Shown here piece by piece: positions 531 through 25,668 of a stretch of 64,000 nucleotides of DNA. The position numbers and the translations under genes are program-made. Source of the DNA: Spirochaetota bacterium (GTDB taxonomy: Bacteria > Spirochaetota > UBA4802 > UBA5550); NCBI GenBank assembly GCA_022709405.1, contig JAKLIV010000001.1, forward strand, positions 49,952-113,951, given 5' to 3'. The first letter of the stretch is position 1. Each line of letters starts with the position of its first letter. Below the pieces are notes generated by a model, which was not told where the DNA came from, ran no database searches, and saw only the letters and a program-made list of their open reading frames with translations.

Positions 531-2216
531 ATGGAAAAGAAGGATTCACAGGGTAAAAGCACACGGCAATTATATCAAATCAACCCGGACCAATGGTTCA
601 GCAGGATCATTTGCCCTTATTGCAATGCACAAGCGCCGGAATCTTCTGAGTGGGCGATTAAAAAATTCAAATTAAAGACCTATAGATGTAAAGAATGTAA
701 TAGCATCATGACTGTAAAATCATCAGACAGATTCTCAACGAATAAAGTCATCCACACCCTGAGCAAGTCAACCTTCTTGAGGGGACTGCAATGCCACAAG
801 TCGCTCTACCTGAACCGGTACAGGCCCGATCTGCGGGATGAGCTGAGCGAGGCGCAGGAGGCGGTGTTCCGGCGCGGACACGATGTCGGCATGCTTGCCC
901 GCGACCTGTTTCCCGGCGGCGCTGATTCATCCCCGGTAAACAGGGACTATGCCGGCGCGGTTGAGCGCACGCGGGAACTCATTAAAGGCGGGGCAAAGGT
1001 CATCTACGAGGCGGCATTCTGCTTTGATGGCATCCTGTGCCTGGCCGACATCCTGGTGAAGAAAGGCAGGAAGTGGAAGATCTACGAGGTCAAGAGCTCA
1101 ACCGGCCTCAAGGACGTGTACCTGCCCGATGCGGCCCTGCAGTATTATGTGATCACCGGCGCCGGGCTTGCAGTTTCTGATGTATCGATCGTGTATCTCA
1201 ATAACCAGTACGTGAGGCAGGGCGAGCTCGATCTTGAGCAGCTTTTCACCATCGAGAGCGTGCTGGAGCAGGTTGTTTCCATGCAGGATGACGTGGCTGA
1301 ACAGGCAGCGGTCATGAAAAAGGTTCTGGCCGGGAAGAAGGTGCCGTCGATCGATATCGGCCCTCAGTGTTCTGATCCTTATGGATGTGATTTCACCGGT
1401 CACTGCTGGGCGCATGTGCCAGAAGTGTCGGTGTTCAGCCTCGCACGTCTCAATGGAACCAGGAAGTTCGATCTGTATCAGGCCGGCATCGTCAGGCTCG
1501 AGGATATACCCGAGGATTATGAGCTTACCGACCGCCAGCAGTTACAGGTCAATGCCCATATTGCGGGGCGCAGTAAAATCAATAAAAAAGAAATCAGGCG
1601 GTTTCTTGAAGCGATCACCTATCCGCATTACTACATGGATTTCGAAACATTCATGCCAGCAGTGCCTCTTTTCGACAATGTGCGGCCATATCAGCAGGTT
1701 CCGTTCCAGTTTTGCGTGTACTTCCTTGAAGAGAAAGGGGCGCAGCCCGAACTGCGCGAGTTCCTGGCCCGGGCAGGATCTGATCCGCGTGAGGCGTTTA
1801 TAAAGGCCCTCATCGAGGCAACGCCGGCACCGGGACCGATCGTTGTATACAACCAGTCATTCGAATCCACCCGCATGAAGGAGCTTGCGCGTGACTTCCC
1901 GGAATACGAGGACGAGCTTAACGAGCGCAGGGATCGCCTGGTTGACCTGCTCGTGCCTTTCCAGAAGGGACATTTCTACGCGCCGTCAATGAACGGTAGC
2001 GCCTCGATAAAGGCAGTGCTCCCGGCGCTGGTCAGGGACCTGTCGTACAAGGGGCTCGCGGTGAGCGACGGGGGCATGGCCATGCAGGCCTTTGAGCACC
2101 TGTGGACCGAGACCGATCATTCCAGGGTCGATGAGATCAGGGCGCAGCTCCTGGAATACTGCAAGATGGACACCTTCGGCATGGTGAGGATCGTGGAGGA
2201 GCTGGGGAAGGTATGA
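531..2216 (+). CDS. DUF2779-type protein: Cas4-like PD-(D/E)XK nuclease + DEDD/RNase H-like exonuclease, with N-terminal zinc-ribbon extension
   Basis: N-terminal CPYC..x..CKEC zinc ribbon. 'LSKSTFLRGLQCHKSLYL' is a typical DUF2779 start. 'ADILVKK..WKIYEVKSS' is a D..ExK nuclease motif. 'CSDPYGCDFTGHC' is a Cys cluster. 'YYMDFETF' is a DxE exonuclease motif, and 'YCKMDTFGMV' lies at the C-terminus. Confidence 0.75.
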   Translation: MEKKDSQGKSTRQLYQINPDQWFSRIICPYCNAQAPESSEWAIKKFKLKTYRCKECNSIMTVKSSDRFSTNKVIHTLSKSTFLRGLQCHKSLYLNRYRPDLRDELSEAQEAVFRRGHDVGMLARDLFPGGADSSPVNRDYAGAVERTRELIKGGAKVIYEAAFCFDGILCLADILVKKGRKWKIYEVKSSTGLKDVYLPDAALQYYVITGAGLAVSDVSIVYLNNQYVRQGELDLEQLFTIESVLEQVVSMQDDVAEQAAVMKKVLAGKKVPSIDIGPQCSDPYGCDFTGHCWAHVPEVSVFSLARLNGTRKFDLYQAGIVRLEDIPEDYELTDRQQLQVNAHIAGRSKINKKEIRRFLEAITYPHYYMDFETFMPAVPLFDNVRPYQQVPFQFCVYFLEEKGAQPELREFLARAGSDPREAFIKALIEATPAPGPIVVYNQSFESTRMKELARDFPEYEDELNERRDRLVDLLVPFQKGHFYAPSMNGSASIKAVLPALVRDLSYKGLAVSDGGMAMQAFEHLWTETDHSRVDEIRAQLLEYCKMDTFGMVRIVEELGKV

Positions 2217-2977: not shown

Positions 2978-5900
2978 ATGAATTATTCATCTATAAGAGA
3001 CAATCATTCGCATGGCGCAGTAGGTGATTTTTTAAAACAGGCAGTATTAAAAAACTCCGAAGTATCAATTGTTTCGGCATACTTTACAATATATGCTTAC
3101 CACCAATTGAAGAATAATCTTGATGAAATAAATAATTTAAAATTTCTTTTTGGTGAGCCTACGTTCATCAAATCATTGGACCCTGACAAAATTCATGTTC
3201 GTGATTTTAAAATAGAAGATGATAAATTATCCATTCCTTTAGAAACCCGATTATCACAAAAGACTTTAGCAAAAGAATGTTCAGAATGGATTAAGGCAAA
3301 AACAGAAATTCGTTCCATGGTTAAACCTAATTTCTTACATGGGAAATTATACCATGTTAAACAGGAAAGCGGAATAGAAAAAGCAATAGCAGGTAGTTCT
3401 AATTTTACTGTTAATGGACTTGGTCTTGGAGGCAGTAAAAATATCGAGCTAAATCTGATCATTGATAGCGATAGAGACCGACAGGAGTTAAAAAGCTGGT
3501 TTGAGAATATTTGGAATGATAACTCCGGCCTCGTTGAAGATGTTAAGGATCAGGTTTTACATTATCTTGAACAACTATATGTTGAAAATGAACCAGAGTT
3601 TATTTATTTTAAGACTCTTTATCATATTTTTGAGAACTACCTTGATGAACAAAAACGAGGCGGATTACTTAACGAAAAAACAGGTTTTTATGACAGTGAT
3701 ATATGGAATATGCTTTATGATTTCCAGAAAGATGGCGTTAGGGGTTCAATAAATAAAATTTTAAAACACAATGGATGTATTATAGCTGATAGTGTTGGTC
3801 TTGGTAAAACATTCGAGGCACTTGCAATAATTAAATATTTTGAACTTCTTAATGCCCGTGTTCTAGTGGTTTGTCCAAAAAAATTAACCGGTAACTGGAC
3901 AATATACCAGGCAAGTCAGAATCATGCTTTAAATCCATTAAAAAAAGACCGCTTCAATTATACGGTATTATATCACACTGACATGGGCCGCGAGTCAGGC
4001 AGATCAGCAGCAAATGGTATTGATCTCGAAAATTTCAATTGGGGTGCTTATGACCTTGTTGTAATTGATGAATCCCATAATTTTCGTGGCAACCCGATGG
4101 ATAAAGTCAAGGATGATGGTTCAATAAAAATGAACAGAGCCAAATGGCTCATGGAAATGGTCATTAAATCCGGTGTTAAGACAAAAGTGCTAATGCTCTC
4201 GGCAACACCGGTTAATAATACTCTGCGTGACTTGCGTAACCAGATTTCTTTTATTACTGAAGGCAATGAAGCTGCATTATTTGAGACTTGTAAAATTAAA
4301 GATATCGGCTTAACCCTGAAAAATGCCCAAACACATTTTACAAACTGGGCTGATAAAAAGAACAGTAATAAAAATATAAAAAATTTATTAGAACGGCTGG
4401 ACTCTTCATTCTTCAAACTTCTTGATGAACTTACAATAGCACGTTCCCGAAAACACATAAAGAATTTTTACGATATGTCATCCATCGGGAGTTTCCCAGA
4501 ACGCAATAGACCACATTCTGTATACCCAGACATTGACCTTGATAAAAGGTTTCCTTCATACGACAGAATTAATAAGCAAATACTGGAATACAAATTATCT
4601 GTATTTAATCCCTCGGCCTATGTTAAGACAGGTAAAGAGCAAAAATATGAGGAAATGGCAAAAACACAGGTCTTAAACTTCAAGCAGGCTGACCGTGAAA
4701 ATTTCCTCATCGGAATGATGAAAGTTAATTTTTTAAAGAGGCTTGAAAGCTCAATTGAATCTTTTGAAATTTCTCTGGATAGGACCATTCAGAAAATAGA
4801 GAAACTTGAAAATAAAATATCTGATTTTCTCAAGAAAAAAGACAAAACCGCTGAAGAATCTCTAGAAAACTACATACCGAATGAAGAAGAACTCGAAGAA
4901 AACAGCGATGAATTGGATGAATGGCAGGTCGGTAAAAAATTAAAATTCGACCTGGCTGACCTTGAACTTGAAAAATGGCTCGTTGATTTAAAAAAGGACA
5001 AAGATGCTTTAATTGACCTTTTAAATAACGCAAAAGCAGTTACACCTGATAGAGACGCAAAGCTCAAAGAATTAAAATTGCTAATTGAAAATAAAACGAA
5101 AAATTATATCAATGATTCCAACAAAAAGGTTATCGTTTTTACCGCATTCGCTGATACTGCCCAATACCTGTATGGAAATATAAAAGATTGGGTGAAAAAA
5201 GAACTTAAATTGCATTGCGCTCTTGTTTGTGGAAGTTATACTCAAACAACCTTGGGAAAAAATGATTATGACAGCATTCTTACGAATTTCTCCCCTGTAT
5301 CAAAGAACCGTGCGAAGTTAAATTCTTCAAAGTTAAATGAAGAAATCGACATCCTTATTGCTACAGATTGTATAAGCGAAGGTCAAAACCTACAGGATTG
5401 TGACTACCTGATAAATTACGACATTCACTGGAACCCCGTTAGAATTATCCAACGCTTTGGCCGTATTGACCGACTTGGTAGTATAAATAAGACAATACAG
5501 CTTGTTAATTTCTGGCCTACAAAAGATCTTGATAACTATATTAACCTTAAAGAACGAGTCGAAGCTCGTATGGCTCTTGTTGATGTAACCGCCACAGGAG
5601 AAGATAATATTCTTAATACAGAACAAATACATGAATTGATTTCTGATGATTTGAAATACCGCAACCAGCAATTAAAAAAACTGCAAAATGAAATACTCGA
5701 TCTTGAAGACATGGATGAAACAGTTTCACTTACTGATTTTACACTCGATGACTTTAGAATTGAGTTATTAAACTTTCTTGAAGACAACAGAAAAAGATTA
5801 AAAGAAACCCCATTAGGTCTATATGGCATTGTTCCTGCGCCATCCGGTGAACATGCTGATTTAATTAAAAACAGAGAATACAGCGAAACCGAAAAAGAAA

Positions 5901-6313
5901 TAATTAAACCCGGTGTAATTTTCTGTTTATCCCAGAAAGGAGAAAGCCAGGGAAACGAAGAAGTAAATCCTCTCAATCCATTCTTTCTTGTGTATGTTCG
6001 TGATGACGGTACGGTGAGATATAATTACACTCACGCAAAACAAGTTCTTGAAATATACAGATTGCTTTGCCAGAATCAAAAAGCCCCATACGAGAAACTA
6101 TGTGAATTATTCAATCAAGAGACAAATAATGGCGAAAATATGAATAATTACACAGAACTTCTTGAAAAAGCAGTACATGAAATTGTACAAATATTCAAGA
6201 AAAAGGGTGCACAGAAACTCACTTCTGATCGTGGGGCATTATTAATCCCTAAGACAAAACAACTGAATGAAATGAATGACTTTGAACTTGTAACATGGCT
6301 TATCGTGAGGTAA
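2978..6313 (+). CDS. PLD-family (HKD) nuclease domain fused to SNF2-family SF2 helicase/translocase
   Basis: HKD motif 'HGKLYHV...GSSNFT' in the N-terminal ~170 aa. SNF2 motifs: 'DSVGLGKTFEA' (I), 'VVIDESHNFRG' (II), 'LMLSATPVNN' (III), 'SEGQNLQ...NYDIHWNPVRIIQRFGRIDRLGS' (V/VI). RBS-like GGAGAA upstream of the ATG. Confidence 0.9.
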   Translation: MNYSSIRDNHSHGAVGDFLKQAVLKNSEVSIVSAYFTIYAYHQLKNNLDEINNLKFLFGEPTFIKSLDPDKIHVRDFKIEDDKLSIPLETRLSQKTLAKECSEWIKAKTEIRSMVKPNFLHGKLYHVKQESGIEKAIAGSSNFTVNGLGLGGSKNIELNLIIDSDRDRQELKSWFENIWNDNSGLVEDVKDQVLHYLEQLYVENEPEFIYFKTLYHIFENYLDEQKRGGLLNEKTGFYDSDIWNMLYDFQKDGVRGSINKILKHNGCIIADSVGLGKTFEALAIIKYFELLNARVLVVCPKKLTGNWTIYQASQNHALNPLKKDRFNYTVLYHTDMGRESGRSAANGIDLENFNWGAYDLVVIDESHNFRGNPMDKVKDDGSIKMNRAKWLMEMVIKSGVKTKVLMLSATPVNNTLRDLRNQISFITEGNEAALFETCKIKDIGLTLKNAQTHFTNWADKKNSNKNIKNLLERLDSSFFKLLDELTIARSRKHIKNFYDMSSIGSFPERNRPHSVYPDIDLDKRFPSYDRINKQILEYKLSVFNPSAYVKTGKEQKYEEMAKTQVLNFKQADRENFLIGMMKVNFLKRLESSIESFEISLDRTIQKIEKLENKISDFLKKKDKTAEESLENYIPNEEELEENSDELDEWQVGKKLKFDLADLELEKWLVDLKKDKDALIDLLNNAKAVTPDRDAKLKELKLLIENKTKNYINDSNKKVIVFTAFADTAQYLYGNIKDWVKKELKLHCALVCGSYTQTTLGKNDYDSILTNFSPVSKNRAKLNSSKLNEEIDILIATDCISEGQNLQDCDYLINYDIHWNPVRIIQRFGRIDRLGSINKTIQLVNFWPTKDLDNYINLKERVEARMALVDVTATGEDNILNTEQIHELISDDLKYRNQQLKKLQNEILDLEDMDETVSLTDFTLDDFRIELLNFLEDNRKRLKETPLGLYGIVPAPSGEHADLIKNREYSETEKEIIKPGVIFCLSQKGESQGNEEVNPLNPFFLVYVRDDGTVRYNYTHAKQVLEIYRLLCQNQKAPYEKLCELFNQETNNGENMNNYTELLEKAVHEIVQIFKKKGAQKLTSDRGALLIPKTKQLNEMNDFELVTWLIVR

Positions 6314-6319
6314 ATCCGG

Positions 6320-9300
6320 ATGTCAAATACTGAAATTAAACAAAAGATACACGACAGCATTAAATCATTTGCTTCTGGTTCATTAACTGATAACGCGTTG
6401 AATATATTTTCAACCCTTGGCTATATAACCACTCGCCAGAACCCCTTTACGACGAAAACATATAAGTATTTCAAGGACACTTATATTGAAAACAATAACA
6501 AATTTAATGAAGACAAAGCTTTGTTTTCAGAGTGGAAATATATTGATTTACTTTTTCAACTTTCGGAAGAAGAAGTTTCATCTCAGACAAGCCTTTTCGA
6601 TACAAAACGCGTTGACCATACTGTTATTGAGACATACCTATTCTTTATTATAGAACTTTCGGAAAATAACTATTCCAGAACCACATTAAGCAATATCACA
6701 CGTGAAATGAATAAAGTTTTCCCAATGCCGGTCATGGTATTGTTCAAACATGGCGAATCTCTAACCCTTTCAATAATTAATAGAAGGCTCCACAAGAGGG
6801 ATGAACAGAAAGATGTTCTTGAAAAAGTCACACTCATTAAAGATATTTCCATAAGCAATCCTCACAGAGCACATGTAGAAATTCTCTTTGATTTATCTTT
6901 TGAAGAATTACTGACTAATCATGGTTTCACTAACTTTGTAGAGCTGCATAACGCATGGCAAAAGACTCTTAACCTATCAGAGTTAAATGAAAAGTTTTAT
7001 AAAGATTTACAAGACTGGTTCTATTTCGCTTCGCATAATATAAAATTGCCATTTAAGCCTGAATATATCGATTCTCAGGAAAATATCAAAAACTTCCTGG
7101 TAAGGTTACTTGGAAGAACTATGTTTTGCTGGTTTGTAAAAGAAAAAGGTCTAATACAACCAGAATTACTTGAATTGACTGACTGGAACAATATTCGATA
7201 TAATCTTACCGTTGACATTAATGATAAAAACTTTTTAAAAAGCAATAGTTATTATAGAGGTGTCCTGCAGAATATTTTCTTTAATGCTTTAAACAAGAGT
7301 GATAAAAAGAATAAAAAGGATTTTAAGTGGACCAAATATCTGCCCGCCGATTTTAATTATGACATTTTACTTTCAATACCCTATCTTAATGGTGGTATCT
7401 TTGATACTCTTGATGAAGATAATGCGAAAGAAAGTATTGAAGATAGTGTTATCAAAATACCTAATTACCTTTTTTATGGCATAACAGAAAAACAAAAAAT
7501 CACTACTGGCAAAGGGGAAAATAAGGAAGAACAAATTTCAACTGTAGTGCACAAGGGTCTTAATGAAATATTAAAGTCTTACAAGTTTACCCTTGAGGAA
7601 AACACTCCCCTTGAAGAGGACATTGCCCTTGACCCTGAACTTCTCGGCCTTGTTTTTGAAAATCTTTTGGCTGAATTGGACCCAAACCTTGAAGAAAGTA
7701 CAATATCAAGCATCCGAAGGCAAACTGGCAGCTATTATACTCCTCGAAAAGTAATTCAGGAAATGGTAAATGAGAGTCTCTATCTCTATCTTTCAAAGTA
7801 TATTGAAAAGAACCATCCCGGGTTAGCAGGTTATAAGAAAGATTTAGCTGATATTATTTACCATCAGGTATCTACCAATGAAAAAACCAGTGAATGTTGT
7901 GAGGCCGTTGTTTCGGCACTAGATAAGTTCAAGGTGTTAGACCCTGCATGTGGTTCTGGGGCATTCCCTATGGGTATGCTTCATCGTATGGTCGATATTC
8001 TGAAGGCAGTTGATCCTGATAACAAGATATGGCTTGGTTTAAAGTTAAAAGGCGTTGATTCAACGCAGCGGGTTGAATTTAAAAAAATTCTTACGCTCCA
8101 CCTAGATGACTATGGCCGCAAACTCGGCATCATTCGAGATAGCATTTATGGCATAGATATACAGCCCATGGCTGTTCAGATAACAAAACTCCGTTTTTTT
8201 ATAACACTTCTTATCGACCAGAACATTGAGAAAGGCATAACCCCTATGCCGAATATTGAGACAAAGATTATCTGCGCTGACAGTTTGAAAAACATTCAGG
8301 CCGGTTTGTTCAGTAGTGATGCTATTAATCAATTAAAAGAGGCCAGGAGGCGTTTTTATCAGCCAGACATCAGTTATCAAGAAAGAGAAAAAATCACAGA
8401 AGAAATTGTTGTTATTCTTGACCAGGCTTTTCCGGATTTTGCTGAGCAGATTACAGGTAAAAAAATTAAGGGTCAGAATAAGGAACTGATTCGCCACTGG
8501 TTTACCCACGCTACAATTGCTGCACCATTTTTCAATATGGATTTCTTTTATCCGGAGCTTGGAGGCAAGGGTTTTGACTGTGTCATAGGGAATCCACCTT
8601 ACGGTGGCAAAAAGATAAGCGATGAAATCCGTCAGGACCTTGATATTGAAAGCAAAGATCCTTACGGTGCATTCATTGCCCGCTTTATTAATGAACCCAA
8701 CAGTCCCACACCTTTGAAACACGGTGGTGTTCTCGCATACATTGTAAGTGATACTTTTATGACCATAAAAAGTCATTTAAAACTAAGAAAGCATATAATG
8801 CAGAATTATATACATAAAATGCTGCGAGTAAATCCAGATACGTTTAAAGCCACGGTCAATACCGCGATTATTATATTCGAACGAAATACAAACGACAGTA
8901 TAGACCCAAATCATATTTGCCAGATGGCGGATATGACAAATATTAGTATTCACGATAATTATGAGCATTTTGTGGATGTACTCCACCAGACAGAGGGTGT
9001 TGATTTCAGTGAAGCGGACATACGGAAGGCTGTGTCAAATGCCGAGTATGCTATTTATTATTATCCACAAAGTTTGATTAAGACTAACAGCAATTTACCG
9101 TTATTTGTGGCGAGCCCAAAGCTGTTTGCGTTGATGAATGATGGAAATGATCTAGAGAATAAGTCGGATAGTGAATGGAATGAATTGGGTGGGAAAAAGG
9201 TTCAGGTAAGAAGTATACCTATGAATGATTCGATAGTTAAGATAGTTAAGTTAGGAGATGTCGGTTCTGCACCACATGGCATTTCAACAGGCAACAATAA

Positions 9301-10108
9301 GAAGTATGTACGTGCTGTTGAAGGTACAAAAGGAAGTTATGATGCAATAGAAGATTGGATGATTTGCTCTGAGTCAGAAATTAATACTTTATCAGAGAAA
9401 GATAAAATTAACGGTCTAAATAAAGATTGGAAATTATTAAAGAGATGTTTTGTTCCCTTTGAGAAAGGAGGCGAATCAGATTCTGGTGATGGATGGATGC
9501 CAAACTACTATGTGCCAACTACTTACTATATTAACTGGGCTAAAGGTGCAATTAATGATATGAGAAAAAATCCAGGTTTTAGATGGTTCAACGTGCAATA
9601 CTTTTTCAGAAAAGGACTTACTTTTTCCATATCAGGTATTTATGCACCAACATTCAGATTAAACAGTGGAGGCGTTTTCGAAGCAAAGGGTTCAGGTTTA
9701 TTCTGTGATATTTATGATGATGAGACATTGTTGGGTTTTATCGCTTCAAAATTAGCAAAATTTATTTTTAAAAACTATATCAAACATTCTGTTGATACTA
9801 GTGGTGATGATATTGCTTCATTTGTTCTTCTAAGTAATAATAAACATAATAATATAAAATTAAAAGTTGCCAGTATAATCAAAAAACAAAAATCAGATCC
9901 CCGTTACGATTACGCCAGTAACGAACAAATCGAAATCGACAAACTCGTTTACGAAGCATACGGCCTTAACGCTGAAGACATCGAAGAAGTAGAAAACTGG
10001 TATGCCCGCAGATATCCAAAACTTTCATCAGCACAAAAAGCTAACTTAAGGGCTCTTGGCAAGAGTGATGATTATCTTGTGCTGTATGGGTTGAAAAAAG
10101 AAAAATGA
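6320..10108 (+). CDS. large gamma-class N6-adenine DNA methyltransferase (Eco57I/PglX-like architecture; no nuclease motif seen)
   Basis: Motif I 'VLDPACGSGAFPMG' precedes motif IV 'VIGNPPYGG'. C-terminal 'IDKLVYEAYGLNAEDIEEVENWY' tail is typical of type IIG/IIL-like methylases. Starts 6 nt after the helicase stop. Confidence 0.85.
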   Translation: MSNTEIKQKIHDSIKSFASGSLTDNALNIFSTLGYITTRQNPFTTKTYKYFKDTYIENNNKFNEDKALFSEWKYIDLLFQLSEEEVSSQTSLFDTKRVDHTVIETYLFFIIELSENNYSRTTLSNITREMNKVFPMPVMVLFKHGESLTLSIINRRLHKRDEQKDVLEKVTLIKDISISNPHRAHVEILFDLSFEELLTNHGFTNFVELHNAWQKTLNLSELNEKFYKDLQDWFYFASHNIKLPFKPEYIDSQENIKNFLVRLLGRTMFCWFVKEKGLIQPELLELTDWNNIRYNLTVDINDKNFLKSNSYYRGVLQNIFFNALNKSDKKNKKDFKWTKYLPADFNYDILLSIPYLNGGIFDTLDEDNAKESIEDSVIKIPNYLFYGITEKQKITTGKGENKEEQISTVVHKGLNEILKSYKFTLEENTPLEEDIALDPELLGLVFENLLAELDPNLEESTISSIRRQTGSYYTPRKVIQEMVNESLYLYLSKYIEKNHPGLAGYKKDLADIIYHQVSTNEKTSECCEAVVSALDKFKVLDPACGSGAFPMGMLHRMVDILKAVDPDNKIWLGLKLKGVDSTQRVEFKKILTLHLDDYGRKLGIIRDSIYGIDIQPMAVQITKLRFFITLLIDQNIEKGITPMPNIETKIICADSLKNIQAGLFSSDAINQLKEARRRFYQPDISYQEREKITEEIVVILDQAFPDFAEQITGKKIKGQNKELIRHWFTHATIAAPFFNMDFFYPELGGKGFDCVIGNPPYGGKKISDEIRQDLDIESKDPYGAFIARFINEPNSPTPLKHGGVLAYIVSDTFMTIKSHLKLRKHIMQNYIHKMLRVNPDTFKATVNTAIIIFERNTNDSIDPNHICQMADMTNISIHDNYEHFVDVLHQTEGVDFSEADIRKAVSNAEYAIYYYPQSLIKTNSNLPLFVASPKLFALMNDGNDLENKSDSEWNELGGKKVQVRSIPMNDSIVKIVKLGDVGSAPHGISTGNNKKYVRAVEGTKGSYDAIEDWMICSESEINTLSEKDKINGLNKDWKLLKRCFVPFEKGGESDSGDGWMPNYYVPTTYYINWAKGAINDMRKNPGFRWFNVQYFFRKGLTFSISGIYAPTFRLNSGGVFEAKGSGLFCDIYDDETLLGFIASKLAKFIFKNYIKHSVDTSGDDIASFVLLSNNKHNNIKLKVASIIKKQKSDPRYDYASNEQIEIDKLVYEAYGLNAEDIEEVENWYARRYPKLSSAQKANLRALGKSDDYLVLYGLKKEK

Positions 10109-10527
10109 ACTATTGGCTCGTAAAATTTGCACCTTTCCGGTATAGTTGGAATGATGTTCTGAAAAACGGAAAATTTGAAATTTATTCAGTCCGCAGTCCG
10201 CAGGCACGGAACAATCTGAAAGCTATGAAACTAAATGATTTGGTACTGTTCTACCATAGCCAGCAGGAAAATTGTGTAATGGGTATTATGAAAGTAATTA
10301 AGGAAGCGCACCAGGACCCGACTACTGATGATACTCGGTGGGTTTCAGTAACTTTTGAACCTGTTGAAACCTTGAAAAAGCCGCTCTTTTTGAAAGAAAT
10401 ACGATTAGTCTCGGAACTAACCGGTCTACCATTATTAAAACAGCCACGTCTTGCTGTTATGAAGCTTACTGAGAGTGAATTCAATATAATTACACGCTGG
10501 TGGGAGTATCGACGAGAAAAATATTAA
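10105..10527 (+). CDS. EVE (PUA-like) domain protein, predicted modified-base reader
   Basis: 'MNYWLVKFAP...YSWNDV...LVLFYHSQQENCVMGIMKV' matches the canonical EVE N-terminus and core. The ATG overlaps the methylase TGA (ATGA), implying translational coupling. Confidence 0.8.
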   Translation: MNYWLVKFAPFRYSWNDVLKNGKFEIYSVRSPQARNNLKAMKLNDLVLFYHSQQENCVMGIMKVIKEAHQDPTTDDTRWVSVTFEPVETLKKPLFLKEIRLVSELTGLPLLKQPRLAVMKLTESEFNIITRWWEYRREKY

Positions 10528-10789
10528 ATATATTCTCCGCACGTCCTGTTCTTCGGCAGTTCAAGTAGGGGAGAGCAAAGAGGTCGCTTTCGGATAATCT
10601 TATTGTAAGAGTTGACGCTATATTTATAAAACGGCGTTTATACTAAATTCCTTTTACTCGATTGGTATCCTGCACATTTTTACCATCGATAGGCTATTAG
10701 GAAGGAGTGCTTAAGATTATTGCGAAGCTGGTGTAGGTGCTAGGTATTTCAGACTCAAAATCAAGCATTAATGAGGGTGAAATAATAGA

Positions 10790-11773
10790 ATGAATCTATT
10801 CTTGATTGGTTCGGGCTTTACTAAATCTGTTTTCCCTCAAGCGCCTTTAAATAATGACCTTATTAGTGTTCTATTGAGAGAAAATCCAGGTGGCGCATCT
10901 AGAATACTTACTGAAAAATATAATACCGGAGATATTGAAGTTGCCCTTACAAAACTGGAACTTGATATTTCAGTCACCAGTGATGAATCAGAAAGAGGTA
11001 AGTTAACCGAATTGAGAGCAAATATAATATTGGAACTGGTAAAACATTTTCATGCATACAGGGCGAGTGAAGAGCTGATAGGAGGTTTACCTTGGTTAAG
11101 GGACTTCTTCGGCACCGTTGTAAATATTGGCGATACGGTTATCAGCTTAAACTACGATGCGTTATTTGAAGGACTACTGGATTGTATGGGTAAATGGACT
11201 CCGAATGGAGGTTATGGAAACCACTTTGTATATCCATTTGAAGATGAGGAATCTTGTGCCCAAAGCCCGGTTACGGTATTAAAAATCCATGGTTCAATCA
11301 CCTTTAAATCGGCGCCTTATTTTGATAAACCACAGTGCAAATCTGTAAATTTTATTTTTAATGAACACTATTTTCCCAAAACAGCGAAAGACAAACATTT
11401 TGGTTATGGTCTGGATAATGGTGAAATATACTTGATAGCCCCGAGTTATGTAAAAGTTCCTTCCGTAAAAATAACATACTCAATGATCGATGGAATGCAA
11501 GCATCTTCGGATGCAACAAACCTGATGGTTATTGGATGTGGGCTTCGACCTGAGGATACCTTTCTAACTTTGTTATTAACCAATTTTCTTAAACACCCAG
11601 ACTGGAAAGAGCGAAGGATTATTATCGTAGATCCTAAAGCTAATGAGATAGCAGGCAAGATACGCCACTATTGGGGGGTCGATGTTGATCGATGTATTGT
11701 GCCAATTCAAGGAATATTGGAAAAGAAGATCGGAGAATTGCGTCAATATACTCGTGCATCTTTGACTGCCTAG
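10790..11773 (+). CDS. SIR2-like (SIR2_2 family) protein, candidate NAD+-consuming effector
   Basis: 'FLIGSGFTKS' N-terminal glycine loop, 'ISLNYDALFE' (TTNYD-like), 'LKIHGSI' (KLHGS-like), and 'VIGCGLRPED' (GYSxxD-like). Confidence 0.7.
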   Translation: MNLFLIGSGFTKSVFPQAPLNNDLISVLLRENPGGASRILTEKYNTGDIEVALTKLELDISVTSDESERGKLTELRANIILELVKHFHAYRASEELIGGLPWLRDFFGTVVNIGDTVISLNYDALFEGLLDCMGKWTPNGGYGNHFVYPFEDEESCAQSPVTVLKIHGSITFKSAPYFDKPQCKSVNFIFNEHYFPKTAKDKHFGYGLDNGEIYLIAPSYVKVPSVKITYSMIDGMQASSDATNLMVIGCGLRPEDTFLTLLLTNFLKHPDWKERRIIIVDPKANEIAGKIRHYWGVDVDRCIVPIQGILEKKIGELRQYTRASLTA

Positions 11774-11804
11774 TGTGTGTCTTTTTAGTGTATTGGAGGT
11801 AATT

Positions 11805-12815
11805 ATGTTTCTCTCATCAAAAGATAAGATAAGAGAAAAGGAATTTTCTATTATCTTTGAACCTGAACACAGAAGTAAGGTATGGAAGATCATTGAAGAA
11901 AAATTCCATGAATATTTCAATATGATCATTAAAGACGCTTGTCAATCACCCGTCTCGGAGATAGACAGATTGAAGAAAAAATTCTCAAATGTTAGTCCTT
12001 CTGTCAACATCGGTCAATATCTTGATGTTGAAATGTCTTCGGAAATTGAGAATTTTGAGAAGACCCAAAAAACCTACAAGAATTTATTTTCCAAAGCTAA
12101 TATCGAAGAATATGCATCGGATACAAAGCTTTTTAGATCGGATCTGAAGAATGAATGCCCCGTTATACGTGGCCTCTGGAACAGCAAAGATGAGGAATTG
12201 AAGAAGTGGAAGGAAGCGTATAAGTATTCCAATGATGACGAACTCTATGAAGTAATGGCAAATATTGTGAATTTCTCACATGCCTATGCCAAGTCTATGA
12301 AGAAAAAACAGTATGGGGAAAATGACGATTATGCGAAATTAAATTTCGACTGTTTAGATGGTATTAAGGACGATACTGAACCGGACTATGGTCTTGTCGG
12401 TGTTGTTGGTTACGGTATCATGTCTATTATAATGTATCACTTTTACCCGCAGTATTTCCCCTTACACCTGAGCGGTGGGATATATGCTCTATATTTCCTT
12501 TCTGATAAATATGAAATTGGAATGCCGAGCAAGTCATCGGAATTTCTCATGATTGACGACAGTCATTGGGATGGAGATATGCATTTCAAGATGAAACACA
12601 ACTATTTTTATCCCTATAGGCTCTACACATGGTATGCCCTGCGATTGTATCGCCTGCTAAAAACCGAGTGCGCAAAACATAATTTTACTCTCGATGATGC
12701 TTACCGTTATGTGTATCTCAATTCGTTTTGTTGGGATGTATGCAGGAGACATACTGAAGAAATAAGGACCATGGTGGGTGCTGATGAAGACCCGAACAAG
12801 CGCTTCTGGTATTGA
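11805..12815 (+). CDS. hypothetical protein (orphan, ~336 aa)
   Basis: ORF track starts at a GTG at 11775. The ATG at 11805 is preceded by GGAGG plus a 6-nt spacer. No recognised motif. The 3' end overlaps the next gene. Confidence 0.55.
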
Positions 12816-14427
12816 TGATATACTGAAAAGGTATTTTAGCGACATTGCCGGTTGCGGATTGCGTGATCTACAGGAAGCAGCGATACGACGCCTTCTCGAA
12901 GGTGGAAATACCCTCTGCCTCATGCCCACGGGCGGGGGTAAATCGCTCATTTACCAGGTCGCCGGTCTCTGCATTGGTAAAACGACACTGGTAATATCGC
13001 CGCTTATAGCTCTCATGTCCCAGCAGAATGAGCGCCTTATCGATCGAGGCGTCAAAACCTTGTATTTTCCCGGAGGAATAGGTGGAAAAGAGCTCTATGC
13101 CATGCTAAAGAAGCATGGAGAGGGCGATCCACCTGATTTCATTTTCATATCACCGGAGCGGCTCGAATTCGAGGGTTATTTTGAATTTATACTTAATAGA
13201 ATGCGGAATAGAATTGGCCTGGTTGTCGTTGACGAGGCCCATTGTATATCCCAATGGGGGCATACCTTCCGTCCTTCTTATAAGATGATTCCTCGTTTCC
13301 TTGATGATGTGTTTACCCAAGAGTCATGGCCTACAGTCCTGTGTCTTACAGCGACATTGAACAAGAAAGACCAGGGTGAGATTTCTGCTGACTTTCACAT
13401 CCCCGCAGATGGGATAATGAAAAGCCCTTTTCTCCTTCGCGACAACATTGCAATAACCGTGGCGAGAGATTTCAAGAATGAAGAGGACAAGAAATCCTAT
13501 CTTGAAACCTTGCTTTCCAAGCACAAAGCTGATAAAACAATAGTCTATGTTCATCGTAAAAAGGGTCAGTACGGAACGGAGTCCATGGCTGAGGAATTTT
13601 ACAATAAAGGTTTCAAATGTCTCTATTTCGATGCGGATCTATCAGAAAACCAGAAGGTGGAGGCGCTTGAGCGCTTTGAAAGGGGCGATGTTAAAGTTAT
13701 GTTCGCCACCGGTGCGTTCGGCATGGGTATCGATATCGATGATATCCGGGTTGTCATCCATTATCTTCTGCCGGAATCGATAGAACAATTTTACCAGGAA
13801 ATAGGCCGGTCCGGAAGAGACGGCAAGCCTTCATATTCATATCTCCTTTTCACTGAAACGAATATCAAGGTAAGGCGTGACTTGATACGAACAAGCATGC
13901 CAACGACTCAAGAATTGGCTGAAACTTTTACGAAGAGATTTATTCACGCCAGAGAAAGTAAAATCGATACCATCAACGCTTGGGAAGACCTGGCGGATAA
14001 TGAAAAGATATCCTTTCTGTATTTTCGGAAGTATGGTTTAATTGATGTTGTCGCGAAAGGGATACGCTCGATTAAAGGTTTCAAACCAGTCAAGCCTCTA
14101 AAAGAATTTGATGCATTCATGAAAACTTCAAAAATTGGTTCTGTCCTTAATATAGCTTCAAGAACACGAATTGATGTAAAAGGAATTATAAATAAGATAT
14201 ATGAATTGTTTACAATGGGTGATCTAAAACTTGAGAAGGCACCCAGCAAGTGTGTATTTTTAATAAAAAACAAAGAGTTATCCGATGAAATTCAACAAGA
14301 AATAATACGTGATATTGATGAGAAAGTTGCCTATCGTTTACAAGGGTTTGAGAAATTGGTTGTAATGGTGTTGGGGGGAGAGGATCCAACAGATGCGATA
14401 TGCACTCATCTCGGAATTGAAAAGTAA
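12784..14427 (+). CDS. RecQ-family SF2 DNA helicase (short form; no obvious HRDC)
   Basis: '[13 protein letters not shown]' (motif I), '[19 protein letters not shown]' (DEAH plus RecQ signature), 'LTAT' (motif III), '[20 protein letters not shown]', '[11 protein letters not shown]' (motif VI). The ATG at 12784 overlaps the upstream gene by 32 nt. Confidence 0.85.
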
Positions 14428-18270: not shown

Positions 18271-18394
18271 CATAAAACAGATATTCATATTTCCTGTGCT
18301 AGGCGGTAAATATAAGGTTGGCAATGGGTTGGCCAGTTTGTTCGGAGTGCAGGAATTAAAGTAAATCCGGCCAGTGAGGAGAGTTAATACCCCC

Positions 18395-24568: not shown

Positions 24569-24638
24569 ATATCAACATGTTGCATAGAAATGTCATATAA
24601 CTTAAATGGTATCATGGGTATTGAGGATAAAAATTTAA

Positions 24639-24666
24639 TTGACAATGACGATTTTTGCAGTATAAT
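24639..24666 (+). promoter_or_regulatory. near-consensus sigma70-type promoter (TTGACA-16 nt-TATAAT)
   Basis: TTGACA at 24639..24644, 16-nt spacer, TATAAT at 24661..24666. It lies inside the ORF-track N-terminus of the WYL gene, 35 nt upstream of an in-frame ATG at 24701. Confidence 0.5.
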
Positions 24667-24700
24667 ACTGCGAAAACCCCGCCAATACAAGGACATACTC

Positions 24701-25636: not shown

Positions 25637-25668
25637 CCAGCATCAATCATTAAATAAAAGGTGATTTA

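What the first reader, a model, noticed from the sequence alone, without database searches (positions are those of the whole stretch)
2978..10527. Split PLD-SNF2 translocase-nuclease + 1262-aa N6A methylase + translationally coupled EVE reader
Seen in sequence: this is a three-gene operon with a 6-nt gap and then an ATGA overlap. The nuclease (HKD) and motor (SNF2) are on one polypeptide. The methylase (motif I, then NPPY) and a presumed target-recognition region are on another. A stand-alone EVE domain is coupled to the methylase stop codon.

Established: type ISP enzymes combine nuclease, SF2 motor and methylase/TRD. DISARM class 1 combines an SNF2 helicase, an N6A methylase and a PLD protein, but also needs DrmA and DrmB (DUF1998). 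EVE domains bind modified bases and have been noted in restriction-type contexts.

Inference: a modification-dependent reader inside a modification-generating operon is unusual. It might gate the PLD-SNF2 nuclease by reading self or foreign modification.
Basis: partly seen in the sequence, partly recalled or inferred. Interest (0 to 1): 0.65.

Follow-up and report, generated by a model that had tools for sequence, protein, structure and literature searches.

The report
Restriction-like operon with a dedicated EVE reader
The three genes are real and form a restriction-modification-like defence operon (a DNA-cutting motor, an adenine methylase and a small EVE protein that binds modified bases), and the EVE gene has stayed with one branch of these methylases across many bacterial phyla, so it is probably a working subunit rather than a chance neighbour.

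Summary
ORFs 2978-6313 (PLD/HKD nuclease + SNF2 motor), 6320-10108 (N6-adenine methylase) and 10105-10527 (EVE) have the stated 6-nt gap and ATGA overlap, and all catalytic motifs are intact.

The motor/methylase pair belongs to a large, uncharacterised family found in about 600 or more species genomes. Its constant core is PLD-SNF2 plus a DUF4391 domain, which here is fused to the methylase N-terminus. It is not type ISP, DISARM or Hma/MANTIS.

EVE linkage is clade-specific:
- 32 of 35 loci whose methylase shares the window's C-terminal region carry EVE.
- 0 of 57 other loci carry it.
- Three EVE homologues chosen without reference to the methylase all sit directly after such a methylase.

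EVE divergence tracks the methylase core and C-terminal tail (rho 0.74-0.81) but not the nuclease (0.24). The first 118 methylase residues track the nuclease (0.81).

This suggests a chain: PLD-SNF2 to DUF4391 adaptor to methylase hub to EVE. What EVE reads is unresolved. My best guess is that it gives a classical methylation-protected restriction system a second arm against modified phage DNA. The main rival is that it reads the system's own m6A mark.

Novelty: a new variant of a known kind, since Bell et al. 2020 described EVE next to other SNF2-nuclease/methylase systems.

The parts
2978..6313 (+). Gene 1: single-HKD PLD nuclease fused to an SNF2-family SF2 translocase (1111 aa).
   Evidence: Pfam finds PLDc_2, RE_NgoFVII, SNF2-rel_dom and Helicase_C. 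PADLOC model C3a139 'HKD+Snf2' matches end to end at 437 bits. More than 8000 homologues exist, 75-88% identical across phyla.
3338..3403 (+). PLD catalytic signature, H121-G-K123 ... G139-S-S-N142.
   Evidence: Read from the translation. It aligns to the BfiI HxK...SxN motif (PDB 2c1l) and is conserved in both PLD-SNF2 lineages.
3797..3811 (+). Helicase motif I (Walker A), GLGKT, aa 274-278.
4067..4078 (+). Helicase motif II, DESH, aa 364-367.
5450..5473 (+). Helicase motif VI, QRFGRIDR, aa 825-832.
6314..6319 (+). 6-nt spacer between gene 1 and gene 2. A GAGG Shine-Dalgarno-like motif lies at the 3' end of gene 1.
   Evidence: Sequence read. A metatranscriptome contig spans 6196-6346.
6320..10108 (+). 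Gene 2: DUF4391 adaptor + helical region + gamma-class N6-adenine methylase + variable recognition region + conserved C-terminal tail (1262 aa).
   Evidence: Pfam finds Eco57I, N6_Mtase and MmeI_Mtase. The best PADLOC match is to type IIG methylase models, covering the methylase part only. The 120 homologues listed are 55-68% identical.
6320..6673 (+). Methylase aa 1-118: the segment that co-varies with the PLD-SNF2 partner, so the probable interface with the nuclease.
   Evidence: Pairwise identity of this segment tracks PLD-SNF2 identity (rho 0.81) and not EVE identity (0.30). The aa 1-300 bit score tracks the PLD-SNF2 score (rho 0.79, n=103). The closest methylase homologues align only from aa 107-119 onward.
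6461..7099 (+). DUF4391-homologous domain, aa 48-260.
   Evidence: jackhmmer seeded with a bona fide stand-alone DUF4391 protein (L079, Pfam E=2.8e-62) converges on this region of the window methylase and of 131 long methylases. Direct Pfam matches are only sub-threshold (E=9e-4). The AF2 model has pLDDT 74.6 and has no significant match to any solved structure in a Foldseek search of the PDB.
7940..7969 (+). Methylase motif I (AdoMet binding), DPACGSGAFP, aa 541-550.
   Evidence: Read from the translation. Invariant in 28 homologues.
8591..8602 (+). Methylase motif IV, NPPY, aa 758-761 (the N6-adenine catalytic motif).
   Evidence: Read from the translation. Invariant in 28 homologues.
9020..9889 (+). 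Variable region, aa 901-1190: the probable target-recognition domain. It is not detected as TaqI_C, unlike in methylases of the EVE-less clade.
   Evidence: Identity to the window falls into two groups (0.64-0.76 or 0.34-0.45) and tracks neither EVE (0.29) nor PLD-SNF2 (0.06). TaqI_C is found in 4 of 4 EVE-less methylases tested and in none of the 31 EVE-clade methylases scanned.
9890..10105 (+). Conserved C-terminal tail, aa 1191-1262 (...IDKLVYEAYGLNAEDIEEVENWYARRYPKLSSAQKANLRALGKSDDYL...). It is specific to the EVE-linked clade and is a candidate docking site for EVE.
   Evidence: Mean pairwise identity is 0.68, the highest of any methylase segment, and it tracks EVE identity (rho 0.74). 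phmmer detects it only in EVE-clade loci, apart from a marginal 20-bit match in the EVE-less locus L129. The docking role is inferred.
10105..10108 (+). ATGA overlap: the EVE start codon overlaps the methylase stop codon.
   Evidence: Sequence read. The same 4-nt overlap occurs in L105, L109, L113, L123 and L125, and gaps of 5-10 nt occur in 10 more loci.
10105..10527 (+). Gene 3: stand-alone EVE domain protein (140 aa, PUA-like superfamily base-flipping reader).
   Evidence: Pfam EVE scores 123 bits. It is 40% or less identical to canonical stand-alone EVE structures 1zce, 2gbs, 2eve and THYN1. Across 31 operon EVEs there are 10 invariant and 22 near-invariant columns, including W4, W15, Y50, D71 and R115.
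10528..10789 (.). 262-nt spacer that ends the operon. The downstream genes belong to other systems.
   Evidence: The downstream SIR2-like, 346-aa and RecQ-like genes have no counterpart in any of about 170 related loci. No terminator-like site was found.

Best explanation
This is an ATP-dependent, restriction-modification-like defence operon built from three co-adapted modules.

1. The nuclease-motor. A PLD(HKD)-SNF2 protein has a single HKD motif, which implies a dimer that forms one active site, as in BfiI, SauUSI and MtsD. It translocates on double-stranded DNA and cuts.

2. The methylase hub. Its variable C-terminal region recognises a DNA site, and its NPPY domain marks host adenines as self. 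Its N-terminal DUF4391 domain is the adaptor that recruits or activates the PLD-SNF2 nuclease on unmethylated sites.

3. The EVE protein. It is a dedicated, translationally coupled subunit of the methylase hub, not of the nuclease.

Most likely role of EVE (inferred): it flips out and binds a modified base that the methylase cannot assess, such as hypermodified cytosine or adenine in phage DNA. This would give the hub a second, modification-dependent way to license the nuclease. The system would then cover both unmodified DNA and DNA modified to evade restriction. In effect it would combine an ISP-like and a SauUSI-like enzyme from separate parts.

Shown: the gene architecture, intact motifs, family membership, the clade-specific conservation of EVE, and the domain-level co-variation.

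Inferred: dimerisation, the physical contacts, the ligand of EVE, and the defence function itself.
For: - Architecture and motifs.
- Conserved pairing of PLD-SNF2 and methylase: most of 80 species-level loci from many phyla have it, out of 597 or more relatives found.
- DUF4391 is the constant partner of PLD-SNF2. It is stand-alone next to type III Mod/Res genes in Firmicutes and fused to the methylase elsewhere.
- The methylase N-terminus co-varies with PLD-SNF2 (rho 0.79-0.81), while the rest of the methylase does not.
- EVE is present in 32 of 35 loci with the window-type methylase C-terminus and in 0 of 57 others (Fisher p about 1e-21, not corrected for phylogeny).
- EVE lies directly after the methylase, with an overlap or a gap of 10 nt or less, in about 15 loci.
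- EVE persists although at least seven different genes have been inserted between it and the methylase, and although the clade pairs with two PLD-SNF2 lineages that are only about 30% identical.
- EVE identity tracks the methylase core and tail (rho 0.74-0.81) and not the nuclease (0.24).
- The 120 closest EVE homologues are all stand-alone, and three chosen without reference to the methylase all sit after such a methylase.
- Ten columns are invariant across 31 operon EVEs, including W15 and Y50.
- Experimentally studied EVE and related PUA-superfamily readers in defence sense modified bases for nucleases: VcaM4I (PMC7897488), and SauUSI, which is PLD + SF2 + an SRA reader (PMC7913695). Bell et al. 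(PMC7641849) proposed the same dual logic for other EVE-linked SNF2-nuclease/methylase systems.
- Genomic setting: a low-GC defence island (35% GC against about 55% in the host) bounded by an integrase and tRNA-Val.
Against: - No biochemical or genetic data exist for any member of this family. None was found in the literature searches.
- If EVE merely targeted the nuclease to modified DNA, one might expect it to travel with the nuclease. Instead it travels with one methylase clade, which fits a reader of the methylase's own product at least as well.
- The ligand cannot be inferred. The position matching pocket residue W26 of PSPTO5229 (2eve) is Ile or Leu here, and Y82 of that protein has no counterpart.
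- No EVE fusion to the methylase or the nuclease was found among the 120 closest homologues.
- The clade association could in principle reflect one ancestral acquisition kept by linkage.
- The metatranscriptome contigs cover genes 1 and 2 but not EVE.
Confidence: 0.42

Rival explanations
1. The architecture is the same, but EVE reads the system's own mark. It binds m6A, possibly at hemimethylated or freshly replicated sites made by the partner methylase. It either vetoes nuclease activation on self DNA or stimulates maintenance methylation. This would be a bacterial writer-reader pair comparable to DNMT1 and the UHRF1 SRA domain. It is close to the first reader's 'gating' idea.
For: - EVE co-inherits and co-varies with the methylase core and tail, not with the nuclease.
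- EVE is translationally coupled to the methylase stop codon.
- EVE is indifferent to swapping of the recognition region (rho 0.29), as expected for a reader of a flipped m6A base that does not depend on sequence context.
- PUA-superfamily readers of 6mA exist: the YTH domain of T. gammatolerans McrB, cited in PMC7897488, and the SRA domain of HHPV4I (PMC10101028).
- EVE-clade methylases lack the TaqI_C-type domain found in their EVE-less relatives, so they may need help to assess methylation state.
Against: - In characterised type I, III, ISP and MANTIS systems the methylase itself senses the methylation state, and no separate reader is needed.
- The 57 EVE-less relatives work without one.
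- The one EVE domain (sensu stricto) with solved ligand complexes, VcaM4I, reads 5mC and 5hmC (PMC7897488).
- Nothing in the sequence points to m6A specificity.
Confidence: 0.3
2. EVE is a passenger. It would be one more of the many small accessory or selfish genes that settle inside these operons, with a function of its own (for example binding modified RNA, acting in a toxin-antitoxin-like way, or working with another nearby nuclease such as the PLDc_2, PDDEXK_3, Schlafen or DUF3644 genes). In that case it is kept in the clade mainly by linkage.
For: - These operons are full of variable inserts: HATPase_c_4/Schlafen, DUF1016/YhcG, PDDEXK_3, KilA-N, RhuM, AbiEii, TIR-TPR and SMC-like ATPase genes.
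- In some loci EVE is separated from the methylase by another gene and overlaps a DUF3644 gene by 4 nt instead.
- The EVE sequence is close to the canonical stand-alone EVE proteins of unknown function.
- No fusions were found.
Against: - No other accessory gene shows anything like a 32 of 35 against 0 of 57 distribution.
- EVE has stayed with the methylase down to 26-28% EVE identity, through changes of nuclease lineage, recognition region and neighbours.
- Ten columns are invariant across 31 operon EVEs, including W15 and Y50.
Confidence: 0.13
3. The operon is simply a member of an already characterised system: type ISP, DISARM class 1, Hma/MANTIS (Gao_RL, type-2 'BR') or a type IIG enzyme with a helper.
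For: - There are partial matches to DrmD, HmaA, BrxH and PglX/DrmMI models.
- PADLOC models would label the methylase 'type IIG'.
- MtsD of MANTIS is also an N-terminal PLD + SF2 protein (10.64898/2026.09.23.753747).
Against: - All of these matches are partial and far below the curated cut-offs: DrmD 158 bits against 610, and BREX PglX 47 against 900.
- No DrmA, DrmB/DUF1998, DUF499, DUF3780, PglZ or BrxC was found in the 28 neighbouring ORFs scanned against Pfam; the 18 scanned against PADLOC matched no full DISARM, BREX or Hma component, only a weak partial DrmA-like match on the RecQ-like helicase.
- The nuclease and methylase are on separate polypeptides and the nuclease is PLD, not Mrr, so it is not type ISP.
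- The methylase N-terminus is DUF4391, not a PD-(D/E)XK nuclease, so it is not type IIG.
Confidence: 0.03
4. It is not a defence system. The SNF2 motor, methylase and EVE might serve epigenetic regulation or DNA repair in the host.
For: SNF2, methylase and reader combinations serve chromatin regulation in eukaryotes. No phage assay exists for this family.
Against: - The catalytic PLD nuclease is intact.
- The recognition region is variable and swaps freely.
- The distribution is patchy and driven by horizontal transfer, with 75-88% identity across phyla.
- The operon lies in a low-GC island among PDC-S68, NERD-UvrD and SIR2-like genes, next to an integrase and a tRNA gene.
- The accessory genes are typical of R-M operons.
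Confidence: 0.05

Closest known systems
Stand-alone EVE associated with COG1743 methylase - DUF499 ATPase - SWI2/SNF2-nuclease operons and with type I R-M (Bell, Wolf and Koonin 2020, PMC7641849). These operons were later named Hma, or 'BR' types 1 and 2 (PMC12839542); type 2 matches MANTIS/Gao_RL (10.64898/2026.09.23.753747) by components.
   Same: An RM-like operon with an SNF2-family helicase fused to a nuclease (PLD in type 2), an N6A methylase and a separately encoded EVE. The same dual logic was proposed: methylation protects self and EVE senses modified foreign DNA.
   Different: - The window has no DUF499 AAA+ ATPase and no DUF3780/MtsB.
- Its methylase is Eco57I/PglX-like with a fused DUF4391 domain, not the COG1743 type.
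- The HmaA model matches only the C-terminal lobe of the helicase (88 bits).
- The EVE association described there is mainly archaeal, and co-variation with the methylase was not shown.
SauUSI (type IV; PLD nuclease + SF2 motor + coupler + SRA reader in one chain; PMC7913695, 10.1101/2025.10.16.682607).
   Same: An N-terminal single-HKD PLD nuclease followed by an SF2 translocase. It combines with a PUA-superfamily base-flipping reader, forms its active site by dimerising, and cleaves in an ATP-driven way.
   Different: Structural similarity could not be tested because the AF2 model of the PLD-SNF2 protein was poor (pLDDT 46.6).
Type ISP enzymes LlaGI and LlaBIII, and type III R-M.
   Same: They use one recognition-plus-methylase module to decide between methylation and restriction, joined to an SF2 dsDNA translocase and a nuclease. 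The methylase is a gamma-class N6A enzyme followed by a recognition domain. This comparison rests on my own knowledge of these enzymes.
   Different: ISP enzymes are single polypeptides with an Mrr-type PD-(D/E)XK nuclease. Here the system is split into two proteins joined through DUF4391, the nuclease is PLD and the motor is SNF2-type. Firmicute relatives of the PLD-SNF2/DUF4391 pair sit beside a complete type III Mod/Res pair.
CglI and NgoAVII (PLD nuclease R-protein + DEAD-family ATPase + methylase; PMC4267653, PMC4267654, PMC5737866).
   Same: ATP-dependent restriction with a BfiI-like or NgoFVII-like PLD nuclease. The Pfam RE_NgoFVII model scores 31.4 bits against a cut-off of 23.8.
   Different: In CglI and NgoAVII the nuclease carries its own DNA-recognition domain, the motor is a separate DEAD-Z1 protein, and neither DUF4391 nor EVE is present.
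PADLOC candidate family C3a139 'HKD+Snf2', and the Cj0031-like type IIG methylases flanked by a PLD+SNF CDS noted by Milman et al. 2023 (PMC9881135).
   Same: This is the family the window's first gene belongs to (437 bits, end-to-end match). The pairing with a type IIG-like methylase has been noted in passing.
   Different: These sources list only a domain label. They give no function, no DUF4391 adaptor, no EVE and no experiments.

Membership tests
PLD(HKD)-SNF2 / DUF4391 / methylase family (PADLOC C3a139 'HKD+Snf2'; no formal name) | Full-length match of gene 1 to the HKD+Snf2 model, with intact HxK and helicase motifs. | tested here: met
   PDLC01075 scores 437 bits, with aa 25-1110 matching model positions 23-947 of 948. 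Motifs checked.
PLD(HKD)-SNF2 / DUF4391 / methylase family | A DUF4391 domain encoded next to or fused with the partner methylase. | tested here: met
   jackhmmer seeded with stand-alone DUF4391 converges on methylase aa 48-260. The direct Pfam match is sub-threshold (19.6 bits against 29.9), so the homology rests on the iterative search and on position.
PLD(HKD)-SNF2 / DUF4391 / methylase family | A methylase gene immediately downstream of the PLD-SNF2 gene on the same strand. | tested here: met
   Seen in most of 80 genome loci and in nearly all the metagenome loci that reach far enough upstream of the methylase.
EVE domain (Pfam PF01878) | Score above the Pfam gathering threshold over the whole domain. 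| tested here: met
   123.2 bits against a cut-off of 23, with aa 2-130 matching model positions 1-143 of 145. PDB sequence relatives are 1zce, 2gbs, 2eve and THYN1.
Type ISP R-M (LlaGI/LlaBIII) | Nuclease, SF2 motor, methylase and recognition domain all in one polypeptide. | tested here: not met
   Two ORFs are separated by a stop codon and 6 nt.
Type ISP R-M (LlaGI/LlaBIII) | An Mrr-like PD-(D/E)XK nuclease domain. | tested here: not met
   The nuclease is PLD/HKD.
DISARM class 1 | DrmD score above the NCBIfam cut-off. | tested here: not met
   NF038317 scores 158 bits against a cut-off of 610, and the match is partial.
DISARM class 1 | DrmA helicase and DrmB (DUF1998) present in the locus. 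| tested here: not met
   Pfam found no DUF1998 in the 28 neighbouring ORFs scanned, and no DrmB model matched in the PADLOC scans of 18 neighbours; only a weak partial DrmA-like match (E 6e-6) on the RecQ-like helicase. No such cluster was seen among the accessory genes of 151 related loci, but this was not tested directly: only ten representatives of the larger clusters were annotated.
Hma / type-2 'BR' / MANTIS (Gao_RL) | DUF499 AAA+ ATPase (MtsA/HmaC) and DUF3780 (MtsB) in the operon. | tested here: not met
   Neither family was found by Pfam or PADLOC in the window's neighbours. The defining features are taken from PMC12839542 and 10.64898/2026.09.23.753747.
Hma / type-2 'BR' / MANTIS (Gao_RL) | A helicase with an N-terminal HKD nuclease. 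| tested here: inconclusive
   The domain order is the same, but the HmaA model matches only aa 535-862 (88 bits). Structural comparison was not possible because the model was poor.
Type IIG (Eco57I/MmeI-like) | Eco57I/MmeI-type gamma-class N6A methylase domain. | tested here: met
   Eco57I scores 71.8 bits against a cut-off of 25.3. PADLOC REase_MTase_IIG scores 165 bits over aa 407-659 and later residues.
Type IIG (Eco57I/MmeI-like) | A PD-(D/E)XK endonuclease domain at the N-terminus of the same polypeptide. | tested here: not met
   The N-terminus is DUF4391-like and Pfam finds no nuclease family there. The AF2 model of aa 1-320 has no significant PDB match (best Foldseek E=0.11, TM-score 0.17).
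BREX | PglZ phosphatase and BrxC ATPase together with PglX. | tested here: not met
   The PglX models match only partially (47 bits against a cut-off of 900). No PglZ or BrxC was found in the neighbours.
SauUSI-type type IV enzyme | PLD + SF2 + modified-base reader in a single chain, with no cognate methylase. | tested here: not met
The resemblance is functional only.
Any restriction-modification system | Demonstrated methylation motif and restriction of unmodified DNA. | not testable with these tools
   This needs SMRT or Nanopore methylomes and phage or plasmid assays.

The most novel reading that the evidence does not exclude
EVE is an obligate reader subunit of the methylase that recognises the enzyme's own m6A mark, or the hemimethylated state after replication. 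It uses that reading to hold back the PLD-SNF2 nuclease or to drive maintenance methylation. This would be a prokaryotic writer-reader pair built like DNMT1 and the UHRF1 SRA domain. It would be a so far undescribed way for restriction systems to tell self from non-self, in which the methylation state is read by a separate protein rather than by the methylase's own active site.
Probability: 0.25. Interest if true: 0.8.

Novelty: new variant of a known kind. Interest (0 to 1): 0.58.

Why it matters
The PLD-SNF2/DUF4391/methylase family is among the more widespread RM-like systems. Relatives were found in at least 597 stretches of species-representative genomes, and its proteins are 75-88% identical across phyla. 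I found no experimental work on it, and current tools would file it as 'type IIG'.

The co-variation analysis gives a testable wiring diagram: nuclease to DUF4391 N-terminus to methylase to EVE. It also identifies a methylase clade in which a modified-base reader has been kept as a near-obligate third subunit.

If EVE senses modified phage DNA, this is a compact way to close the main loophole of classical restriction, which is phage DNA hypermodification. If EVE reads the system's own m6A, it is a new principle of self-recognition.

Either outcome would also give the first function for the canonical stand-alone EVE fold (Atu2648, PSPTO5229 and THYN1 type), which has had solved structures but no assigned role for years.

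Tried and rejected
- E. coli genome searches with the operon and with the high-GC flank found nothing. The window is a metagenome contig from an anaerobic digester.
- The 327-aa ORF after EVE (10790-11773) was tested as a DUF3644 homologue, because EVE-DUF3644 pairs occur in L085 and L086. There is no similarity. The downstream SIR2-like, 346-aa and RecQ-like genes have no counterpart in related loci, so they are excluded from the operon.
- The AF2 model of the whole PLD-SNF2 protein was too poor to use (pLDDT 46.6, pTM 0.29), probably because the 20-sequence alignment was about 80% identical. No fold search was run on it, so the SauUSI/MtsD-like fold is untested.
- The AF2 model of methylase aa 1-320 was usable (pLDDT 74.6), but Foldseek against the PDB gave nothing significant (best E=0.11). 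The idea that DUF4391 is a degenerate PD-(D/E)XK nuclease is neither supported nor excluded.
- Profile searches of the PDB found nothing for the methylase and only generic SNF2/DEAD C-lobes for gene 1.
- A 164-aa ORF replaces EVE in the only EVE-less lineage of the clade (L118, L124, L149). It was tested as a divergent EVE and is not one (hhalign probability 1.3%).
- A search for EVE fusions as evidence of physical interaction found none. All 120 closest homologues are stand-alone.
- A repeat search for a specificity shufflon or programmed inversion near the methylase found only chance-level repeats.
- Promoter and terminator scans gave counts not clearly above the shuffled expectation (promoter-like sites 38 against 29.7 ± 5.5; terminator-like 5 against 5.6), so they were not used.
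- EVE ligand specificity could not be read from pocket residues. 2eve W26 corresponds to Ile or Leu here, and Y82 lies in an insertion that this subfamily lacks.
- A literature search for DUF4391 found two unrelated papers.
- Only 3 relatives were found on viral contigs, so this is not a phage-borne system.

Full report
**1. Observation**

The ORF list gives three same-strand genes: 2978-6313 (1111 aa), 6320-10108 (1262 aa) and 10105-10527 (140 aa). The raw sequence shows a TAA stop, the 6-nt spacer ATCCGG and an ATG at the first junction, with a GAGG motif just upstream. The second junction is an ATGA stop/start overlap.

Pfam assigns the domains as follows:
- Gene 1: PLDc_2, RE_NgoFVII, SNF2-rel_dom and Helicase_C.
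- Gene 2: Eco57I, N6_Mtase and MmeI_Mtase, plus a weak DUF4391 match.
- Gene 3: a full-length EVE domain (123 bits).

All catalytic signatures are intact. These are HxK...GSSN in the PLD domain, GLGKT, DESH and QRFGRIDR in the motor, and DPACGSGAFP followed by NPPY in the methylase.

**2. Where the window comes from**

The window is a contig from an anaerobic-digester metagenome (JGI 3300010429). It is not E. coli.

The operon has 34-39% GC and lies in a mosaic low-GC island. Other candidate defence genes in the island are a SIR2-like/RecQ-like trio, PDC-S68 and a NERD-UvrD helicase. The island ends at a tyrosine integrase and a tRNA-Val gene, after which housekeeping genes of 52-59% GC follow.

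Low-depth metatranscriptome contigs, 100% identical, cover parts of genes 1 and 2 and span their junction. They do not cover EVE. This is weak evidence of expression.

**3. The family**

Gene 1 matches the PADLOC candidate model 'HKD+Snf2' end to end (437 bits). It has more than 8000 homologues, and the best 120 are 75-88% identical although they come from many phyla. That points to strong constraint and frequent horizontal transfer.

A scan of one genome per species found at least 597 relatives. I examined 80 loci:
- In most of them a homologue of the window's methylase follows on the same strand.
- In Firmicutes the PLD-SNF2 gene is instead followed by a stand-alone DUF4391 gene (Pfam E=2.8e-62) and a complete type III Mod/Res pair.

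An iterative search seeded with that stand-alone DUF4391 converges on aa 48-260 of the window's methylase and on the N-termini of 131 other long methylases. The constant core of the family is therefore PLD-SNF2 plus DUF4391. DUF4391 is either free or fused to the methylase.

An AF2 model of aa 1-320 is of fair quality (pLDDT 74.6) but resembles no solved structure.

The operons also carry many variable accessory genes:
- HATPase_c_4/Schlafen-like proteins
- DUF1016/YhcG
- PDDEXK_3
- KilA-N
- RhuM
- AbiEii
- TIR-TPR
- an SMC-like ATPase

**4. Is EVE linked?**

In the 80 genome loci, which were chosen by similarity to the nuclease, EVE appeared only twice. Those two loci had the methylases most like the window's. 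I therefore searched from the methylase side.

- The four closest methylase homologues looked up (62-67% identical) all have EVE in the operon. It is either adjacent or separated by one inserted gene.
- A metagenome scan with a methylase alignment added 80 more loci.
- Across all loci with at least 1.5 kb of sequence after the methylase, EVE is present in 32 of 35 whose methylase shares the window's C-terminal region (aa 901-1262). It is present in 0 of 57 others. Fisher p is about 1e-21. This test is not corrected for phylogeny.
- Two of the three exceptions (L118, L149) belong to one lineage that has an unrelated 164-aa ORF in the EVE position. The third (L128) has only 1.3 kb of sequence after the methylase, and its close relative L114 carries EVE 2.2 kb downstream.
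- EVE directly follows the methylase with a 4-nt overlap in 5 loci and a 5-10-nt gap in 10 loci.
- From the EVE side, the 120 closest homologues are all stand-alone proteins.

For the family as a whole, EVE is dispensable.

**5. Module wiring from co-variation**

I scored each methylase segment against the window and compared the scores with those of the partner PLD-SNF2 across 103 loci:
- Only aa 1-300 track the nuclease (rho 0.79).
- The remaining segments are weakly anti-correlated.

I then compared pairwise identities in the 17 loci that have all three complete genes:

| Segment | Tracks PLD-SNF2 (rho) | Tracks EVE (rho) |
|---|---|---|
| Methylase aa 1-118 | 0.81 | 0.30 |
| Methylase aa 301-520 | 0.40 | 0.81 |
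| Methylase aa 521-900 | 0.40 | 0.76 |
| Methylase aa 901-1190 | 0.06 | 0.29 |
| Methylase tail aa 1191-1262 | 0.26 | 0.74 |
| EVE | 0.24 | not applicable |

The region aa 901-1190 tracks neither partner. Its identity to the window falls into two groups, as expected for a recognition domain that is swapped between systems.

The EVE-linked methylase clade pairs with two PLD-SNF2 lineages that are only about 30% identical to each other. Both lineages keep the catalytic motifs.

The two methylase clades also differ at the C-terminus. EVE-less methylases carry a recognisable TaqI_C specificity domain (4 of 4 tested). EVE-linked ones do not, and they have a conserved extra tail instead.

The simplest reading is a physical and functional chain: nuclease to DUF4391 N-terminus to methylase hub to EVE. 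This reading is inferred from co-variation and has not been shown directly.

**6. What EVE is**

It is a canonical stand-alone EVE. The closest solved structures are Atu2648, Rpa0253, PSPTO5229 and THYN1.

Across 31 operon EVEs, 10 columns are invariant and 22 more are nearly so. This indicates purifying selection.

The pocket cannot be assigned a ligand. The residue corresponding to PSPTO5229 W26 is Ile or Leu, and Y82 of that protein lies in an insertion that this subfamily lacks.

Experimentally, the EVE domain of VcaM4I flips 5mC or 5hmC into a hydrophobic pocket. A related YTH domain reads 6mA (PMC7897488).

**7. Mechanism**

The PLD domain aligns with BfiI over the HxK...SxN motif. Single-HKD nucleases form one active site by dimerising. 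This has been shown for SauUSI (PMC7913695) and for MtsD of MANTIS (10.64898/2026.09.23.753747).

I propose a classical logic. The methylase recognises its site. It methylates host DNA. On unmethylated sites it recruits or activates the dimeric PLD-SNF2 through DUF4391, and PLD-SNF2 then translocates and cuts. For asymmetric, hemimethylated sites, a dependence on site orientation like that of type III, type ISP and MANTIS systems is plausible but untested.

For EVE I commit to a modified-base sensor docked on the methylase hub that licenses the nuclease on hypermodified DNA (confidence 0.42 for the whole statement). Every EVE domain proper that has been studied in defence does this, as do most related PUA-superfamily readers. 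SauUSI shows that a PLD + SF2 nuclease can be driven by a PUA-superfamily reader.

The main rival (0.30) is that EVE reads the methylase's own m6A or hemimethylated sites. The co-inheritance with the methylase fits this at least as well.

A passenger role (0.13) is made unlikely by the 32 of 35 against 0 of 57 pattern, and by EVE staying with the methylase through changes of nuclease lineage, recognition region and neighbouring genes.

**8. Comparison with known systems**

The operon is not any of the following:
- Type ISP, because it is split into two proteins and the nuclease is PLD.
- DISARM, because DrmD scores 158 bits against a cut-off of 610 and there is no DrmA or DrmB.
- Hma/MANTIS, because there is no DUF499 or DUF3780 and the methylase is of a different class.
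- BREX, because there is no PglZ or BrxC.
- A true type IIG enzyme, because the N-terminus is DUF4391 and not a nuclease.

The closest concept in the literature is the stand-alone EVE beside SNF2-nuclease/methylase/DUF499 operons and type I R-M systems (PMC7641849). The pairing of a Cj0031-like methylase with a PLD+SNF gene has been noted only in a table (PMC9881135). I found no experimental work on this family.

**9. Verdict**

It is a new variant of a known kind.

New here are three points: the identification of the family, the DUF4391 adaptor, and the finding that EVE is a co-evolving companion of one methylase clade rather than of the nuclease. Interest is 0.58.

Noticed in passing
window 44195-45575: A tyrosine integrase (44195-45391, minus strand) lies next to tRNA-Val (45503-45575). 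Beyond it come housekeeping genes (Mur ligase, NfeD, M20 peptidase, ceramidase) at 52-59% GC. The region from before position 1 to about 45.5 kb therefore looks like an integrative defence island of 45 kb or more inserted at tRNA-Val.
   Followed up: partly
window 10790-14427: A three-gene set lies right after EVE: a SIR2-like protein (weak match, 327 aa), a 346-aa protein with no family, and a RecQ/DpdF-like helicase (549 aa, overlapping the previous gene). It is not found in any related locus, so it is probably a separate, unnamed defence candidate.
   Followed up: partly
window 14509-20311: A PDC-S68 candidate defence protein (1253 aa, RecD-like, PADLOC E=0) is followed by a NERD + UvrD-like helicase (645 aa).
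   Followed up: no
window 35657-43959: An AAA_5 (MoxR/McrB-like) ATPase of 423 aa is followed by two ORFs of 1184 and 1124 aa with no Pfam or PADLOC match at all. This is an uncharacterised three-gene cluster inside the island.
   Followed up: no
window 531-2216 and 21668-23656 (minus strand): The island holds two DUF2779 proteins. The first has a weak Cas4-like match. In the parent contig a PDDEXK_4 gene precedes the first one.
   Followed up: no
window 24590-26838: A WYL-WCX regulator is followed by a protein that weakly resembles OGG/8-oxoguanine glycosylase (PADLOC 'OGG' model).
   Followed up: no
L073-L080 (e.g. L079 10001-18954, Clostridium carboxidivorans P7): In Firmicutes the PLD-SNF2 gene is followed by a stand-alone DUF4391 gene and then a full type III Mod (N6_N4_Mtase) and Res (ResIII + RE_endonuc) pair. 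That makes two nuclease-motors for one methylase.
   Followed up: partly
L169 503-9402 and L170 1-7311 (Bacteroidales): An IS3-family element (HTH_Tnp_1 + rve) splits the PLD-SNF2 gene, while the methylase and the adjacent EVE stay intact. This looks like a natural 'nuclease-off, methylase+EVE-on' variant that could be informative for function.
   Followed up: no
L085 12034-13427 and L086 10256-11643: In these loci EVE overlaps a downstream DUF3644 gene (about 328 aa) by 4 nt. An extra gene sits between the methylase and EVE: a PLDc_2/NgoFVII nuclease of 423 aa in L085 and an unknown 377-aa protein in L086.
   Followed up: partly
L050 14367-19058, L118 4202-9094 (also L063, L108, L149): Some EVE-clade methylases are about 1560-1630 aa long because of an extra block near the C-terminus. 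Pfam identifies it as a DUF3800 domain in the two scanned, L050 and L118.
   Followed up: no
L118/L124 12887-13381 and L149: The only EVE-clade lineage without EVE has a 164-aa ORF with no family in the same position, followed by an HTH + Peptidase_M78 (ImmA/IrrE-like) gene. This may be a functional replacement.
   Followed up: partly
window 2978-6313 compared with P0002-P0120: The PLD-SNF2 protein is unusually conserved for a defence gene. It is 75-88% identical across Chrysiogenia, Thermodesulfovibrionia, Lentisphaeria, Marinimicrobia, Desantisbacteria, Omnitrophica and others. Its partner methylase reaches only 55-68%.
   Followed up: partly
L174 (IMG/VR UViG 3300050026_001190): One of only three relatives on viral contigs carries PLD-SNF2, an EVE-clade methylase and an EVE fragment (8630-8875), which is possibly truncated.
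   Followed up: no
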